From a virus, in IMG/VR virus record IMGVR_UViG_3300032304_001768, positions 1-64,000 of that record: a stretch of DNA of 64,000 nt; one strand, written 5' to 3'. This document shows, piece by piece, positions 6,085-64,000 of this stretch. The notes beneath the pieces were generated by a model that was given only the letters and a program-made list of their open reading frames with translations, had not been told where the DNA came from and ran no database searches. The translations under genes and the position numbers were made by a program. How positions within the stretch are numbered: the stretch's first letter is position 1; each line of letters starts with the position of its first letter.

Positions 6085-7875
6085 ATGACCAATTTCGGAT
6101 TTGATTATTTCCTAGAATGCGCAGAACTCATTGAAGAAGCTAGAGAAGCTTCCCTTTTTGGAGTGGGCACACCAGCGTCTAAAAGACAGGGTGAATTAAC
6201 AAATGAACTTTATAAAATGTTTGCTACTAGAAAGACCAAGCAAAATATCGCTAAATTTGTAAAGCGTAGGCTTCTTTCAGTATTGAACGATGAGTTTAAT
6301 TACTTTTACATTTCAAAGAACGATATTTACAATGGTATCGATTATATTTTACAAAAACAAGGTTCAACATACGAAATTCCAAGAGATGGAAGTGTTGAAA
6401 CTTATCAAGATCTGGTTACTGATTATGAAGAATCTGAATCTGGCGTTCCCTTCGAAGACGTTAAAGAGATTGAGGATGATCAAGGACATGTAATTCGTTC
6501 AACTGTTCCAATGATTCGTTATGCTATAGATCTATTGGACGAATTAGCAGGAACCGATTCAGATAGACACGTATTGTCTAATTTGGCGTTGGTTAAATTT
6601 CTTTCTGGCGAGAGCAACATCAAGCTTCTTCGATACATTAGCGGTGGAACTGCTGACAAACACAACAACAAAGCGATTTCGGTCGCTATGGATAATGAAA
6701 ATTTCAAAAATTTAGCATCCAGCCAAGAAGGTAAAATGGCAGTTGATGATCTTTCCGCTCAAGATGTGTATGATTACATTCTTTCCGTTGAAGAAAGCGG
6801 CGCTGCTACATCTCTTGATGTTGCGAATGCAAGAAAAACTGAAATCACAGGTCTTGAAAATCAAGATTGGACTGCATCCGAAGATGTTTTAAGCCGATTC
6901 AGACAGCTAAAAGATAAAGTTGCAAGGCACAACATGTCAACTTCAAAGGGTGGTGCTGGTCAAACATTTACCGCTGATACTGATCTTTCTATCGGTTTCA
7001 TTGGTTTTGCGTTGGCTGCATTGTCGGTCATGCAAGTGGGTCTTCGTTCATATTACAACAAGGCGGATCGCGAAAAAACCAGTGGTTCGACTGACCCATC
7101 AATCAATTCTGGTAAGTTGGATGTTGACTACGGTGATGAAACTGTATCAATTCCAACTTCAATAGTGAGAGAAGTGCCTATGCAAATTATCAATAGAACT
7201 ATTGAGCAATTTGATAAACTTCAAAATACTGCTGATGGTTCAACTGCATCTCCAGAAGTATTTGAAAAGGCTATCCCTACCCTCAAGGCAAATAATCAAA
7301 ATCAAACTGCGAAGCTATTGGAAACTATTCTTACAGCATTCAGAGAATTGCACCCAAGTTCTGAACGCTCTGTTGAAACGATCTTCCCGAAAAATGCTAT
7401 TGATGAATTCTTCCCAACTCCAGAATTGAAAAGAGAGTTCTTAAAGATCGCAAATGCTCGTCAAAAAATTGACGATGCTAATGCTATCGCTCTTTTCAGT
7501 AAGAAAATGGCAGAAGTTGAAAGAATGATCAAAGCAATGCCAGATTTCGTTCCCCCAGCGCAGCCTGAAAAATCAGACAATCCACAGATTCAAAAATTCT
7601 TGACTCTGAAGTTTGATTATCAGAAAAAGATTGAACAAAATCCAAACAGTCCATTGAAAACTGCATGGGAACAACAATTAAATATTGTTAATAAGAAATT
7701 GCAAGATCTTCAAGCCTTAGAAACACCTGCACCCGAAGAAGATGACGAAGGAGCTTTTGGTTACATGACGGAACAAGTCAAAAAAGACCGCTATGTAAAT
7801 CCAACTGGAGACTACGTGGATAGAGGTTATAAAAAGCCAATCAATCTTTGGCATTGGAGTCAAATAAATAAATAA
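6085..7875 (+). CDS. Hypothetical late protein, 596 aa, possibly virion-internal
   Basis: Long ORF; TAAATA at 6074-6079; N-terminus 'FDYFLECAELIEE' resembles a capsid-targeting leader. Confidence 0.8.
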   Translation: MTNFGFDYFLECAELIEEAREASLFGVGTPASKRQGELTNELYKMFATRKTKQNIAKFVKRRLLSVLNDEFNYFYISKNDIYNGIDYILQKQGSTYEIPRDGSVETYQDLVTDYEESESGVPFEDVKEIEDDQGHVIRSTVPMIRYAIDLLDELAGTDSDRHVLSNLALVKFLSGESNIKLLRYISGGTADKHNNKAISVAMDNENFKNLASSQEGKMAVDDLSAQDVYDYILSVEESGAATSLDVANARKTEITGLENQDWTASEDVLSRFRQLKDKVARHNMSTSKGGAGQTFTADTDLSIGFIGFALAALSVMQVGLRSYYNKADREKTSGSTDPSINSGKLDVDYGDETVSIPTSIVREVPMQIINRTIEQFDKLQNTADGSTASPEVFEKAIPTLKANNQNQTAKLLETILTAFRELHPSSERSVETIFPKNAIDEFFPTPELKREFLKIANARQKIDDANAIALFSKKMAEVERMIKAMPDFVPPAQPEKSDNPQIQKFLTLKFDYQKKIEQNPNSPLKTAWEQQLNIVNKKLQDLQALETPAPEEDDEGAFGYMTEQVKKDRYVNPTGDYVDRGYKKPINLWHWSQINK

Positions 7876-61969: not shown

Positions 61970-62065
61970 GCTTACATCACTCGCCGCTGGCAACGCCGAC
62001 AGCGACTGATACCAACCCGAAAGCGAGGTTGGTAAGATTGCTCTTTGAAATTTCAAAAATTAAAT

Positions 62066-62140
62066 GGTCTCATCGTCTATCGGTTAGGACAAAAGATTTT
62101 CAATCTTTAGAGGCGGGTTCGATTCCCGCTGGGACTACCA
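62066..62140 (+). tRNA. tRNA-Glu(TTC)
   Basis: Full cloverleaf; AAAGA-TTTTCAA-TCTTT anticodon arm; encoded CCA. Confidence 0.92.
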
Positions 62141-62153
62141 TTTAAAAATTAAT

Positions 62154-62187
62154 AGCGGATAGAACAAGATGGTTAGTTGTCAGTTTC
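62154..62187 (+). pseudogene. Isolated 5' tRNA fragment
   Basis: AGCGGATAGAACAAGATGGTTAGTTGTCAGTTTC resembles acceptor, D-arm and anticodon 5' strand; no 3' half found. Confidence 0.45.
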
Positions 62188-62212
62188 TGCTGCTAGTGTA
62201 AATAACATCAGA

Positions 62213-62755
62213 ATGAAATACACAATTTATAAGATTACTAATAATCTCAATGGTAAGTTTTACATCGGTAAACACCAAACAACAAATCCAAATGATACGT
62301 ATTTTGGATCAGGAAAAGCGATTATCAATGCTATTAAATTTTACGGTAAGTCAAACTTCACGAAAGAGGTGTTGTTCATTTTCGATTCTGAGTTTGAGAT
62401 GAACGCTAAAGAAAAAGAACTCATTACTGAGGAATTTGTGGCAATGCCAGATACTTACAATCTTGGAATTGGTGGTGAAGGTGGTGCGCATTTTAAAGGT
62501 AGACGACATTCTTTAAAAACTAAAGAGAAAATTTCTGTATCGAATACAGGAAAGTCTCTTTCAGAAGAAAGTAGGCAAAAATCTATTGGGAGAAAACATT
62601 CAATAATCACAAAACAAAAAATTTCACTTGCTGCAAAATCAAGGAAAGTTTCTGACGAAACAAAACAGAAGATTTCCAAAGCTTTGAAAGGTAGAAAAGT
62701 CTCAACAGAGACTAAAGAAAAAATTTCCAATACGATGAAAGCTCGTAATAAATAA
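62213..62755 (+). CDS. GIY-YIG homing endonuclease with NUMOD3 repeats (SegB-like position)
   Basis: 'TIYKITN...FYIGKH', 'YFGSG', 'YN...GG', 'GRKHS..TK.KIS'. Confidence 0.92.
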   Translation: MKYTIYKITNNLNGKFYIGKHQTTNPNDTYFGSGKAIINAIKFYGKSNFTKEVLFIFDSEFEMNAKEKELITEEFVAMPDTYNLGIGGEGGAHFKGRRHSLKTKEKISVSNTGKSLSEESRQKSIGRKHSIITKQKISLAAKSRKVSDETKQKISKALKGRKVSTETKEKISNTMKARNK

Positions 62756-62761
62756 TTCAAA

Positions 62762-62855
62762 AGCAGGGTAGAGAAGATCGGTCGATCTCGCTTGGCTCAT
62801 AACCAAGAGGCTACTCAAACGCGCATAAGTGGTTCGAATCCCGCCCCTGCAACCA
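62762..62855 (+). tRNA. tRNA-Met(CAT), initiator-like, with atypical variable/T region
   Basis: 1:72 mismatch; CTTGG-CTCATAA-CCAAG; TTCGAAT; ACCA end; about 15 extra nt before the T loop. Confidence 0.75.
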
Positions 62856-62860
62856 TTCAA

Positions 62861-63000
62861 GTGCTGTAGAATAGAGATACTTCTAAAAGGAAAATCGGTA
62901 TCGAAAGATGTGTGGGTTCGAATCCCACTCAGGCTCAATAAGTGGTCTGATGGCGGAATGGTAGACGCGCTGATAATAAAAAGCCTCTGTTCGTTTGTTG
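62861..63000 (+). ncRNA. Circularly permuted tRNA-like RNA (YrlA/Y RNA-like or permuted tRNA-Leu)
   Basis: 3' half (62894-62935) precedes 5' half (62944-62974); acceptor and anticodon stems pair across the halves; flanks also pair. Confidence 0.8.
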
Positions 63001-63010
63001 CCTTGTTAAT

Positions 63011-63085
63011 GGGAGAGTAGCCAAGAGGTAAGGCAAGAATTTCATAAGTTCTGTATCGCAGGTTCGAATCCTGCCTCTCCTACCA
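63011..63085 (+). tRNA. tRNA with CAT anticodon (Met elongator or Ile2)
   Basis: Canonical cloverleaf; AGAAT-TTCATAA-GTTCT; CCA. Confidence 0.9.
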
Positions 63086-63089
63086 TTAA

Positions 63090-63162
63090 TGCTTGTTGGA
63101 TCTTCTTCATGTCGCGATAAGAAGGTGCCTACCATCGGTGTGAACCCGAAAGCAAGCAACCA
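63090..63162 (+). ncRNA. CCA-ended tRNA-like RNA without a D-arm
   Basis: TGCTTGT/GCAAGCA acceptor plus ACCA; long hairpin; TCGG-TGTGAAC-CCGA T-like arm. Confidence 0.6.
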
Positions 63163-63182
63163 TTTCTTGATAACGTTTCTAT

Positions 63183-63267
63183 GGGTAGATGGGTGAACGG
63201 TTAAACCAGCTGATTGTAAATCAGCCCCTTTATTGGATTGTAGGTTCGAATCCTACTCTGCCCACCA
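63183..63267 (+). tRNA. tRNA-Tyr(GTA)
   Basis: Cloverleaf with long variable region; GCTGA-TTGTAAA-TCAGC; CCA. Confidence 0.93.
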
Positions 63268-63270
63268 AAT

Positions 63271-63361
63271 AGTTGCATGGAACTAAACAATAAGGCCAAT
63301 GGTAGATCTGGACTCTAATATAGATCCGTGTTCTTTGTAGGTTCGAGTCCTACTGTGACTA
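63271..63361 (+). ncRNA. Atypical tRNA-like RNA with CT-CTA-AT loop
   Basis: AGTTGCA/TGTGACT acceptor; perfect T arm GTAGG-TTCGAGT-CCTAC; GATCTG/TAGATC stem; no encoded CCA. Confidence 0.55.
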
Positions 63362-63447
63362 TGATATTGTCGCGTTGATCGGTGACTGATTTGGAATAAG
63401 CAGGAGTAAGTCCAAAGAGAATGATGATAAATCCTGCACAATTTATT

Positions 63448-63539
63448 GGAAGTATGGCAGAGCGGTCTATTGCACTATCTTGGAAAGATAGAGGTCGCCA
63501 AATGGTGGCCCATAGGTTCAAATCCTATTACTTCCGCCA
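63448..63539 (+). tRNA. tRNA-Ser(GGA)
   Basis: Cloverleaf, long variable arm, G discriminator, CCA. Confidence 0.95.
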
Positions 63540-63547
63540 GTTTTAAT

Positions 63548-63625
63548 GGGGCTGTATCGGAACTGCCTTCTAAGCAGTGGCACCGTAAAGGATCGATGCA
63601 GGTTCGAATCCTGCCAGCCCTGCCA
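63548..63625 (+). tRNA. tRNA-Arg(TCT), non-canonical (no in-place D-arm)
   Basis: GGGGCTG/CAGCCCT acceptor; ACTGC-CTTCTAA-GCAGT; perfect T arm; GCCA end. Confidence 0.8.
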
Positions 63626-63789
63626 TTTTTCTCGTTTGGGCGCGTAACGACAAGATACGTTGGAGATGGCTCATGCCAGAGTCTCTGCAAGAGAGAATAA
63701 TCAATAGAATAGGCGCGGGCATTAAGCGCAATAAAAATAATTATTAATCAAAGCAGCGTAGCAAAGCTTGTTAACGAGAATCATTTTAT

Positions 63790-63881
63790 GGGTGTGTGGT
63801 CGAGTCTGGTTTATGGCGTCGCACTTGAAATGCGAAGGTGGTGAAAGCTGCCCGTGGGTTCAAATCCTACCGCACCCGCCA
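63790..63881 (+). tRNA. tRNA-Ser(TGA)
   Basis: Cloverleaf; TCGCA-CTTGAAA-TGCGA; long variable arm; GCCA. Confidence 0.95.
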
Positions 63882-63889
63882 AATTTAAT

Positions 63890-63966
63890 CCCTGTCTGGT
63901 GTAAGTGGTCTGCACGATTCGCTGAAGACGAGTAGGATACCTGATCGAAACGGGTGACAGGGGCCA
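63890..63966 (+). tRNA. tRNA-Phe(GAA), atypical T-loop
   Basis: CCCTGTC/GACAGGG acceptor; ATTCG-CTGAAGA-CGAGT; T-loop ATCGAAA; CCA. Confidence 0.85.
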
Positions 63967-63973
63967 TTTTAAT

Positions 63974-64000
63974 TGGGGTGAAGTCTAATGGTTTGACACC
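63974..64000 (+). tRNA. 5' part of a further tRNA, cut by the window edge
   Basis: TGGGGTGAAGTCTAATGGTTTGACA looks like an acceptor strand plus D-arm (GTC/GAC). Confidence 0.55.

What the first reader, a model, noticed from the sequence alone, without database searches (positions are those of the whole stretch)
63548..63625. tRNA-Arg(UCU) with the D-loop apparently relocated behind the anticodon arm
Seen: only TATCGGA separates the acceptor strand from the anticodon stem, so no D hairpin exists in place. The 19-nt region after the anticodon arm (GGCACCGTAAAGGATCGAT) contains a D-loop-like GTAAAGGAT with the GG dinucleotide. It also contains TCGAT (63593-97), which pairs with ATCGG (63556-60). 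Acceptor, anticodon, T arms and GCCA are intact, which suggests selection. Inference: an internally rewired tRNA that may rebuild the L-shape with different connectivity, perhaps evading host tRNA-targeting defences.
Basis: partly seen in the sequence, partly recalled or inferred. Interest (0 to 1): 0.8.

Follow-up and report, generated by a model that had tools for sequence, protein, structure and literature searches.

The report
Phage arginine tRNA with re-threaded D-arm
This 78-base phage gene is very probably a working arginine tRNA that keeps every standard tRNA part but strings the D-arm pieces in a different order along the chain, a non-cloverleaf layout that is common in phages, is missed by gene finders, and appears in no paper I could search.

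Summary
63548-63625 has intact acceptor, anticodon (UCU) and T arms plus GCCA, only 7 nt where the D hairpin should be, and a D-loop-like element after the anticodon arm.

The helix that covaries is CGG 63558-60 with CCG 63583-85. It is 93% paired, all three pairs show compensatory changes, and RNAalifold predicts it unaided.

After that helix come U-A14-R15...G18-G19-A20. The R15-like base covaries with the last nucleotide before the T stem in 136 of 137 homologues, like the Levitt pair.

The family has 137 unique members and carries only Arg anticodons (with A20), six Ile-type anticodons (with U20 and A73), and one UCA.

This phage has a second member (ACG, 69938-70017) and no ordinary tRNA-Arg. 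Together the two would read about 92% of its Arg codons.

Charging and decoding were not tested, and the defence-evasion idea has no support yet. Ten literature searches found no description.

This scan has reported the same family before on other DNA.

The parts
63548..63554 (+). Acceptor stem, 5' strand (positions 1-7).
   Evidence: Pairs 7 of 7 with 63615-21 (the first pair is G.T). In A1 this helix is 99.4% paired and all 7 pairs show changes on both sides.
63555..63556 (+). U8 and A9 equivalents.
   Evidence: TA is invariant in the 45 rows of A1. In the later 137-sequence parse TA was a filter criterion, so its invariance there is by construction.
63557..63557 (+). Unpaired T. It faces T63586 and may stand for a non-Watson-Crick 13-22-type position.
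   Evidence: This linker position varies among 7-nt-linker members: T 65, C 20, A 13, G 5. The role is inferred.
63558..63560 (+). Helix h1, 5' strand (CGG). It runs straight into the anticodon stem, so it takes the place of D-stem strand 23-25.
   Evidence: Pairs with 63583-85. A1 columns 11-13 with 40-42 are 93.3% paired, with 10, 12 and 11 cells changed on both sides. RNAalifold predicts the helix unaided, and the single-sequence MFE fold contains it.
63561..63561 (+). Position 26 equivalent (A), opposite G63579 (position 44 equivalent).
   Evidence: Placement follows from the sequence. The 26/44 combinations vary widely across the family. The role is inferred.
63562..63578 (+). Anticodon arm: stem 63562-66 with 63574-78, and loop CTTCTAA with anticodon TCT at 63569-71, U33 and A37.
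   Evidence: The four inner stem pairs are 93.9% paired with compensatory changes.
63579..63582 (+). Position 44 equivalent plus a 3-nt connector (GCA).
   Evidence: In 7-nt-linker members the connector is usually 3 nt: GTA 14, GAA 14, GCA 12.
63583..63585 (+). Helix h1, 3' strand (CCG). It takes the place of D-stem strand 10-12.
   Evidence: Same evidence as for 63558-60.
63586..63592 (+). D-loop equivalent T-A-A-A-G-G-A: position 13-like U, A14, R15, one spacer nucleotide, G18, G19 and A20.
   Evidence: The R15-like base covaries with the last variable nucleotide: A..T 126, G..C 10, G..G 1 of 137. The base after GG is A with Arg anticodons and T in all 6 Ile-type members. A20 is the main bacterial Arg identity element (passages of PMC9976931).
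63593..63597 (+). Remaining variable-region nucleotides TCGA, then T63597 as the Y48 equivalent.
Evidence: T63597 goes with A63588, the A..T class of the 136-of-137 covariation.
63598..63614 (+). T arm: stem GCAGG/CCTGC and loop TTCGAAT.
   Evidence: The T stem is 99.1% paired in A1. The loop sequence was required by the collection scans, so its invariance among homologues is by construction.
63615..63625 (+). Acceptor 3' strand 63615-21, discriminator G 63622, and encoded CCA 63623-25.
   Evidence: CCA is encoded in 84 of 137 family members.

Best explanation
63548-63625 encodes a functional elongator tRNA-Arg(UCU) whose core is threaded in a non-cloverleaf order.

The ordinary order is 8-9, D-stem 5' strand, D-loop, D-stem 3' strand, 26, anticodon arm, variable loop. 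Here the chain runs:
- U8-A9;
- one D-stem strand (CGG 63558-60), then position 26;
- the anticodon arm;
- position 44 and a 3-nt connector;
- the other D-stem strand (CCG 63583-85);
- the D-loop (U, A14, R15, N, G18, G19, A20);
- 4 nt and Y48;
- the T arm.

The secondary structure is therefore a three-way junction in which the 3-bp 'D stem' stacks on and closes around the anticodon arm. The pieces that build the L-shaped core are all present: U8-A14, R15-Y48, and G18-G19 to dock on the T loop. The total length is that of a normal tRNA.

Inferred, not shown:
- RNase P and the 3'-end enzymes process it like its neighbours.
- Host ArgRS charges it through A20, C35 and U36.
- It decodes AGA (and AGG) for the phage.

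A sister gene with anticodon ACG lies at 69938-70017 of the same record and would cover CGU, CGC and CGA.

Why phages favour this wiring is unknown. A segment swap by internal duplication and loss, followed by anticodon switching, would explain its restriction to Arg and Ile.
For: Structure
- Rfam's tRNA model scores the gene at 41.1 bits against a gathering score of 29, with the D arm deleted.
- Two viral-contig scans plus the family model gave 137 unique parsed members.
- On a MAFFT alignment that was not fitted to any structure (the window plus 44 unique 7-nt-linker homologues; the 17 with 8-nt linkers were left out), the proposed structure is 95.8% paired. Shuffles give 62.5%, and partners slid by 1-3 columns give 38-50%.
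- Helix h1 is 93.3% paired, and all 3 of its pairs change on both sides.
- RNAalifold predicts h1 by itself.
- In the anchor-based count, h1 is fully paired in 92 of 137 members and 2 of 3 paired in 42 more. It occurs as 13 different triplet pairs. Shuffles give a mean of 29.9 and a maximum of 41 fully paired.
- The R15-like base and the Y48-like base covary in 136 of 137 members.

Identity
- The anticodons among the 137 are TCT 90, ACG 20, TCG 12, CCT 7 and GCG 1, which are all Arg. There are also TAT 4, CAT 1 and GAT 1 (Ile-type) and TCA 1.
- The base after GG is A in 124 of 130 Arg-type members. In the other 6 the parser read GGG, in the cases I looked at because it stopped one G early in GGGA.
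- That base is U in 6 of 6 Ile-type members, all of which have A73. This matches the published bacterial identity sets (passages of PMC9976931).

Need
- ARAGORN's 28 tRNAs in the 82-kb record cover 19 amino acids and lack Arg.
- The family model finds two members in the record (89.1 and 54.8 bits; the next hit scores 28.7).
- In 66 long ORFs, AGA makes up 45.7% of Arg codons, and CGT, CGC and CGA together 45.9%.
- In 93 viral loci with a rewired Arg gene, only 6 also hold an ARAGORN tRNA-Arg with the same anticodon.

Context
- The gene sits in a tRNA array, 8 nt after tRNA-Ser, and encodes CCA.

Weak evidence
- A 272-nt contig of a freshwater metatranscriptome library covers 63515-63786. No listed difference lies inside the gene. 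DNA can be present in such libraries.
Against: - There is no direct evidence here of a mature RNA, of aminoacylation or of decoding.
- No 3D model could be made, so the L-shape is inferred from conserved and covarying positions.
- h1 has only 3 base pairs, and 45 of 137 members have at least one mismatch in it.
- With nearest-neighbour energies, h1 adds only 1.3 kcal/mol (-24.9 against -23.6). The MFE fold (-26.0) shifts the anticodon stem.
- All homologues were found with patterns that fixed the anticodon loop or the GTAA..GGA motif together with the T-arm sequence. The invariance of those parts, and the Arg bias in the counts, are therefore partly by construction.
- Some arrays hold ordinary tRNA-Arg genes beside a rewired one: 35 of 93 loci hold any ARAGORN tRNA-Arg, and 6 hold one with the same anticodon.
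- An earlier claim of this kind in this scan was marked 'part of it fell' on a later check. I could not see which part.
Confidence: 0.8

Rival explanations
1. One reading: a 5-bp helix ATCGG (63556-60) with TCGAT (63593-97) closes around the anticodon arm and the D-loop-like stretch.
For: - The five pairs can form in this sequence.
- The 8-nt-linker subfamily has a real second helix at a comparable place. Linker positions 2-4 pair with the 3 nt right after GGA in 23 of 34 members, as AGC/GCT, AAC/GTT, AGT/ACT and AGA/TCT. Shuffles give a mean of 13.8 and a maximum of 19.
Against: - In A1 the helix is 62.1% paired, and pair 11-56 is unpaired in 28 of 45 rows.
- All five pairs form in only 3 of 82 members.
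- The nearest relatives read TCAAT, which breaks the C-G pair.
- C58, G59 and G60 are already used by the covarying helix h1.
- It gives no energy gain: -23.4 against -23.6 without it.
- RNAalifold does not predict it.
Confidence: 0.04
2. It is a conserved tRNA-like RNA that is not used for decoding, for example a decoy for a tRNA-targeting nuclease, a regulator or a primer.
For: - The architecture is non-canonical, and no charging or decoding data exist.
- Some arrays also hold ordinary tRNA-Arg genes.
Against: - The anticodon loops keep U33 and A37 and carry only Arg or Ile anticodons, plus one UCA.
- The position 20 equivalent and the discriminator switch together with the anticodon class, as expected for synthetase recognition.
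- Without these two genes this phage's otherwise complete tRNA set has no tRNA-Arg.
- Only 6 of 93 loci duplicate the anticodon with an ordinary gene.
Confidence: 0.1
3. It is a decaying tRNA pseudogene that lost its D hairpin and gained an insertion in the variable loop.
For: ARAGORN does not call it, and the Rfam score is lower than that of its neighbours (41.1 against 49.8-64.2 bits).
Against: - The same layout occurs in 137 unique sequences, with compensatory changes in every helix and in a tertiary pair.
- It occurs in cultured phages of Streptomyces, Pseudomonas, Stenotrophomonas and Agrobacterium at 74-79 bits.
- Its total length is that of a normal tRNA.
Confidence: 0.02

Closest known systems
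Ordinary class I bacterial and phage tRNA-Arg(UCU) (Rfam RF00005 cloverleaf)
   Same: - A 7-bp acceptor stem, a 5-bp anticodon stem with loop CU-UCU-AA, and a 5-bp T stem with loop TTCGAAT.
- U8 and A9, a D-loop motif A14-R15..G18-G19-A20, and Y48.
- A discriminator plus CCA, and a total length of about 75 nt before the CCA.
- It passes the Rfam gathering score.
   Different: - There is no D hairpin between positions 9 and 26.
- The two D-stem strands lie on either side of the anticodon arm, and the D-loop follows the second strand.
- The secondary structure is a three-way junction rather than a four-way one.
D-armless mitochondrial tRNAs, e.g. [quoted passage not shown]
   Same: There is no D hairpin in the usual place, only a short connector between the acceptor and anticodon stems. 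By coincidence the anticodon is also UCU.
   Different: - The mitochondrial tRNAs have lost the D-arm altogether and have reduced T arms and flexible cores.
- Here the D stem and D-loop are kept but moved, the T arm is fully canonical, and the tertiary-pair partners are conserved.
- The gene is phage-borne and not from an organelle.
Circularly permuted tRNA genes of the red alga Cyanidioschyzon merolae (recalled; not seen in any call)
   Same: tRNA segments are encoded in a non-standard order.
   Different: - In that case the whole gene is permuted at the acceptor ends, and processing yields an ordinary cloverleaf.
- Here the acceptor ends are at the gene ends and two internal blocks are swapped, so the mature RNA itself must be rewired.
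allo-tRNAs and tRNA-Sec-like 8/4 and 9/3 tRNAs (PMC5389517; abstract and passages)
   Same: They are non-canonical tRNA designs found in bacteria and phages through metagenome mining. Some have anticodons for AGA/AGG or AUA.
   Different: - Those keep the four-arm cloverleaf, with an altered split between acceptor and T stems and a long variable hairpin.
- This gene has the ordinary 7/5 split and no variable hairpin.

Membership tests
tRNA (Rfam RF00005) | Covariance-model score at or above the curated gathering score. | tested here: met
   41.1 bits against 29, E 9.8e-07, over 63548-63622.
tRNA (Rfam RF00005) | Acceptor stem, anticodon arm with a 7-nt loop (U33, R37), and T arm with a GTTCRA-type loop. 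| tested here: met
   The pairs are supported by covariation.
tRNA (Rfam RF00005) | A D hairpin (stem 10-13 with 22-25 closing the D-loop) between position 9 and position 26. | tested here: not met
   Only 7 nt lie between the acceptor and anticodon stems. The model alignment deletes 13 D-arm positions.
Bacterial tRNA-Arg (identity set as listed in PMC9976931) | C35 and U/G36 in the anticodon. | tested here: met
   The anticodon is TCT at 63569-71. The identity set comes from passages read.
Bacterial tRNA-Arg (identity set as listed in PMC9976931) | A20 in the D-loop, right after G18-G19. | tested here: met
   GGA lies at 63590-92. The A is present in 124 of 130 Arg-type members, with the other 6 read as GGG by the parser. 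It is replaced by U in 6 of 6 Ile-type members. That this A sits where ArgRS expects A20 in space is inferred.
Bacterial tRNA-Arg (identity set as listed in PMC9976931) | Charged with arginine by ArgRS. | not testable with these tools
   This needs an aminoacylation assay.
Rewired phage tRNA-Arg/Ile family (defined here and in earlier reports of this scan; not found in print) | UA plus a 5-6-nt linker whose 3 nt before position 26 pair with the 3 nt that precede U-A-R..GG-A/U after the anticodon arm. | tested here: met
   Model R1 scores the gene at 89.1 bits. h1 is CGG/CCG, the commonest of the 13 pair types.
Rewired phage tRNA-Arg/Ile family (defined here and in earlier reports of this scan; not found in print) | The R15-like base is complementary to the last nucleotide before the T stem. 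| tested here: met
   A63588 goes with T63597. The family count is 136 of 137.
Class II tRNA (long variable arm) | The long variable region folds into its own hairpin. | tested here: not met
   RNAalifold predicts no hairpin within 63579-97. Instead the region pairs with the linker.
D-armless mitochondrial tRNA | The D-arm is lost, with no G18-G19 element, and the T arm is reduced or atypical. | tested here: not met
   A D-loop-like element and a canonical T arm are present. The ARAGORN -mt call in this region is a 53-nt artefact in another register.

The most novel reading that the evidence does not exclude
A whole class of translationally active tRNAs (Arg and Ile) folds into the L-shape with a different chain topology: blocks 10-21 and 22-44 are swapped. 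This would show that cloverleaf connectivity is not required for charging or decoding. The class is kept in phages because the altered D-arm backbone lets these tRNAs escape a host or phage-encoded enzyme that reads the D-arm of ordinary tRNA-Arg and tRNA-Ile, such as a nuclease or a modification enzyme.
Probability: 0.2. Interest if true: 0.92.

Novelty: new variant of a known kind. Interest (0 to 1): 0.8.

Why it matters
All cytosolic, bacterial and viral elongator tRNAs are described as cloverleaves. The review of non-canonical tRNAs that I read in passages lists D-arm loss only for mitochondria and never uses the words phage or virus.

A widespread tRNA that keeps the tertiary core but threads it in another order would have several consequences:
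- It would be a natural experiment on which parts of tRNA structure ArgRS, IleRS, RNase P, EF-Tu and the ribosome really need.
- It would supply a scaffold for orthogonal tRNA engineering.
- It would correct phage annotation. ARAGORN called 3 of 119 members. Cultured phages carry the gene unannotated or labelled 'tRNA-OTHER'. As a result, phages such as this one look as if they lack tRNA-Arg.

Tried and rejected
- megablast of 62000-64000 against GenBank phages found nothing.
- ARAGORN in mitochondrial mode gave a 53-nt 'D-loop mtRNA' in a different register, which I discarded as an artefact.
- A single-sequence MFE fold was not decisive.
- A generic structural parse of all fetched loci looked for a 7/7 acceptor, a 5/5 T stem, and a 5/5 anticodon hairpin 5-10 nt after the acceptor. 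It gave 96 unique candidates: 77 Arg-type, 3 Ile-type and 16 others. By eye the 16 others are mostly ordinary tRNAs whose D hairpin was misread as the anticodon hairpin. One is a Tyr-like case, listed under things noticed in passing. I therefore found no further amino-acid class in these loci. The loci were chosen by Arg-biased patterns, so other classes may exist.
- I looked for intermediates of a duplication-and-loss origin among TCT tRNAs that have a normal D-arm and a long variable region. Some share the D-loop motif, but none has both a D hairpin and a second D-loop copy, so the origin model has no support from this.
- Sequencing runs: three metatranscriptome libraries hold 10-19% of the sampled words. 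Of these, X10 and X13 have no contig spanning the gene. Contigs cannot show RNA ends, strand or level, so there is no expression claim beyond 'a contig of an RNA library covers it'.
- Ten literature searches found no description of a phage or bacterial tRNA with this wiring. Neither did passages of PMC9897764, PMC5389517, PMC7609411 and PMC9976931, and my five search terms do not occur in PMC10264068. Subscription-only papers and supplementary files were not searchable, so 'not in print' covers only this library.
- No structure prediction or complex prediction was tried, because the tools fold proteins only.

Full report
**What is there**

The window is the first 64 kb of an 82,326-base IMG/VR virus record that CheckV rates as about 39% complete. 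A tRNA array starts near 62066. ARAGORN finds 7 tRNAs in the window and 28 in the record, and none is tRNA-Arg.

The finding lies 8 nt after tRNA-Ser(GGA). Read directly, 63548-63625 consists of:
- acceptor strand GGGGCTG;
- a 7-nt linker TATCGGA;
- a 5-bp anticodon stem with loop CTTCTAA (anticodon TCT);
- 19 nt;
- a canonical T arm (GCAGG, TTCGAAT, CCTGC);
- acceptor strand CAGCCCT, then G and CCA.

ARAGORN does not call this gene. Rfam's tRNA model does, at 41.1 bits against a gathering score of 29. Its alignment deletes 13 D-arm positions and inserts 16 nt in the variable region.

**Homologues**

The first scan of viral contigs asked for CTTCTAA followed 19-31 nt later by GGTTCGAATCC. Of 119 matches, 68 (61 unique sequences) have the same 12-13 nt between the acceptor strand and the anticodon loop as the window gene.

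The second scan did not fix the anticodon (GTAA, 1-3 nt, GGA, 5-12 nt, GGTTCGAATCC).

I aligned the window gene with the 44 unique homologues that have a 7-nt linker (alignment A1). The 17 with an 8-nt linker were left out of this alignment. From A1 I built covariance model R1.

R1 found 160 matches at E of 1e-6 or better in the 224 viral loci. It also found matches in four cultured-phage stretches and in genome-collection loci.

For the counts, 184 hits gave 164 unique sequences. I dropped 25 of these: truncated hits, low-scoring ordinary tRNAs, and hits without the motif. I dropped 2 more that were odd. This left 137 family members.

**Which long-range pairing is real**

- On A1, which MAFFT made without reference to any structure, that helix is only 62.1% paired. 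Its middle pair is unpaired in 28 of 45 rows.
- Across the family all five pairs form in 3 of 82 members that have at least 5 nt after GGA.
- The closest relatives read TCAAT at this place.

The alternative is CGG 63558-60 pairing with CCG 63583-85, called h1 here.
- On A1 it is 93.3% paired, with 10, 12 and 11 cells changed on both sides and four pair types at each position.
- The whole structure is 95.8% paired. Shuffles give 62.5% (0 of 500 reach the observed value), and partners slid by 1-3 columns give 38-50%.
- An anchor-based test that uses no alignment shows pairing only at this register: 124 of 135 cells. At this register 35 of 45 members are fully paired, against a shuffle maximum of 23.
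- The single-sequence MFE fold also contains h1.
- Among the 137 members, h1 is fully paired in 92 and 2 of 3 paired in 42 more. It occurs as 13 different triplet pairs, including CGG/CCG, CGA/TCG, CTC/GAG, CAG/CTG, CGC/GCG, CCC/GGG and ACC/GGT. Shuffles give a mean of 29.9 and a maximum of 41 fully paired.

**The D-loop equivalent and a tertiary pair**

Directly after the h1 3' strand every member reads U-A-R, then 1-4 nt, then GG and one more base. (The parser required U-A-R and GG, so their presence in all 137 is by construction.) In the window this is TAAAGGA at 63586-92.

The R covaries with the last nucleotide before the T stem: A with T 126 times, G with C 10 times, G with G once, and never A with C or G with T. 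This is the pattern of the R15-Y48 Levitt pair of ordinary tRNAs, which the identity review names (passages of PMC9976931).

The base after GG follows the anticodon class. It is A in 124 of 130 Arg-type members. In the other 6 the parser read GGG, which in the cases I looked at is GGGA with the parser stopping one G early. It is U in all 6 Ile-type members, and all 6 have A73. The review lists A20, C35, U/G36 and A/G73 for bacterial Arg, and A73, U20 and others for bacterial Ile.

Mapped to standard numbering, the chain runs 1-7, U8, A9, N, [23-25-like strand], 26, the anticodon arm 27-43, 44, a 3-nt connector, [10-12-like strand], 13, A14, R15, N, G18, G19, A20, 4 nt, Y48, the T arm, 66-73, CCA. 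In other words, blocks 10-21 and 22-44 are swapped and the total length is that of a normal tRNA.

The steric fit is my inference from textbook tRNA geometry, not a result. In the canonical fold position 44/45 lies beside position 10, and positions 21 and 48 lie beside 8, 14 and 15.

A subfamily with an 8-nt linker (34 members) has a second covarying helix. Linker positions 2-4 pair with the 3 nt after GGA in 23 of 34 members. Shuffles give a mean of 13.8 and a maximum of 19.

**Is it used as a tRNA?**

The anticodons of the 137 members are TCT 90, ACG 20, TCG 12, CCT 7, GCG 1, TAT 4, CAT 1, GAT 1 and TCA 1. The TCT excess reflects the first scan.

In this record R1 finds two members: the window gene (89.1 bits) and 69938-70014 (54.8 bits; anticodon ACG, h1 ACC/GGT, GCCA encoded). 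Ordinary tRNAs of the record score 28.7 bits or less. These two are therefore the phage's only tRNA-Arg candidates.

In 66 ORFs of at least 150 codons, AGA makes up 45.7% of Arg codons, and CGT, CGC and CGA together 45.9%. These are the codons that UCU and an inosine-modified ACG anticodon would read. Inosine formation is assumed from general knowledge.

In 93 viral loci with a rewired Arg gene, 35 hold some ARAGORN tRNA-Arg but only 6 hold one with the same anticodon. The loci are at most about 15 kb, so absences are not conclusive.

A 272-nt contig from a freshwater metatranscriptome library covers 63515-63786, and no listed difference lies inside the gene. This does not prove transcription.

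**Distribution**

A stricter pattern (CTTCTAA, then GTAA, then the T-arm motif) gives 26 loci in 596 billion bases of one-per-species prokaryote genomes.

Of the 26 genome loci, 12 hold R1 matches of 45 bits or more. Nine of those 12 are dense tRNA arrays with 7-25 ARAGORN tRNAs in at most 8 kb. Most are in metagenome-assembled genomes.

Among GenBank phages, blastn finds 19 records. R1 scores 74-79 bits in Streptomyces phage Mildred21 (annotated 'tRNA-OTHER'), Stenotrophomonas phage SOVA965, Pseudomonas phage ventosus and Agrobacterium phage Atu_ph04. The last three carry no annotation at this place. ARAGORN overlaps only 3 of 119 members.

**Comparison with the known, and novelty**

The gene works like, and by the Rfam score is, a tRNA. 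It fails one defining cloverleaf feature: the local D hairpin.

It differs from each of the nearest known designs:
- D-armless mitochondrial tRNAs have lost the arm and have reduced T arms (passages of PMC7609411).
- 8/4 and 9/3 allo-tRNAs are still four-armed (PMC5389517).
- In the permuted tRNA genes of a red alga, processing restores a cloverleaf (recalled).

Ten full-text searches found no description.

Earlier follow-ups in this scan reached the same reading on other genomes, including Arg plus Ile and a Tyr variant. One was later marked 'what was seen stands; bold reading 30/100'. For another, the same claim made on other DNA was checked and 'part of it fell'; no details were visible to me. 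I reached the structure before reading those notes (searches came), but they are not independent evidence.

**Verdict**

- The function as tRNA-Arg is inferred with about 0.8 confidence.
- The purpose of the rewiring is open, and defence evasion is untested.

Noticed in passing
G000:C1:69938-70017 (same record, outside the window): A second rewired tRNA-Arg with anticodon ACG, linker TATACCC, h1 ACC/GGT, GCCA encoded and T loop TTCAATT. It scores 54.8 bits with R1 but only 27.1 bits with Rfam tRNA, below the gathering score. ARAGORN does not call it.
   Followed up: yes
L023:2134-2212, L031:4321-4397, L053:2050-2130, L082:518-599, L101:11181-11259, L146:5506-5582: These have the same rewired layout with Ile-type anticodons (TAT four times, CAT, GAT). 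All have GGU instead of GGA and discriminator A.
   Followed up: partly
L112:440-527: A rewired member with anticodon loop CTTCAAA (UCA), GGA and a long 17-nt tail before the T arm. It may be a UGA-reading derivative of an Arg tRNA.
   Followed up: no
L032, L039, L053, L064, L086, L046 (rows with d of 24-26): tRNA-Arg(TCT) genes with an ordinary D hairpin carrying the same TAAYTGGA-type D-loop, plus a long variable hairpin. This is a class-II-like Arg tRNA, which is also unusual for bacteria and phages.
   Followed up: no
L153, minus strand, starting near 7112 of the reverse-complemented locus: A tRNA-Tyr(GTA)-like gene without a D hairpin. A 6-nt linker segment (CCACAC) is complementary to GTGTGG after the anticodon arm. 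An earlier scan note (e1-5835629) describes rewired tRNA-Tyr.
   Followed up: no
window 62762-62855: A 94-nt tRNA-Met(CAT) call with a long variable region and a weak Rfam score of 32.5 bits. Three non-standard pairs are marked in the acceptor and T stems.
   Followed up: no
window 63890-63966: ARAGORN calls tRNA-Phe(GAA) here, but Rfam's tRNA model reports nothing at E up to 10. The T loop is not of the TTCRA type.
   Followed up: no
R1 matches 62865-62932 only weakly (19.3 bits), and at 63336-63353 it matches only the T-arm part (13.3 bits).
   Followed up: no
window 63629-63784 and 62073-62512: A DNA metagenome run (X3) has contigs that join 63629 to 63784 and 62073 to 62512. Related strains therefore lack these spacer or ORF stretches but keep the rewired tRNA gene, apart from 2 differing letters in 63559-63629.
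   Followed up: no
G000:C1:70347-70418: An ordinary-looking tRNA with anticodon TCC (Gly). Rfam finds it at 48.3 bits but ARAGORN does not.
   Followed up: no
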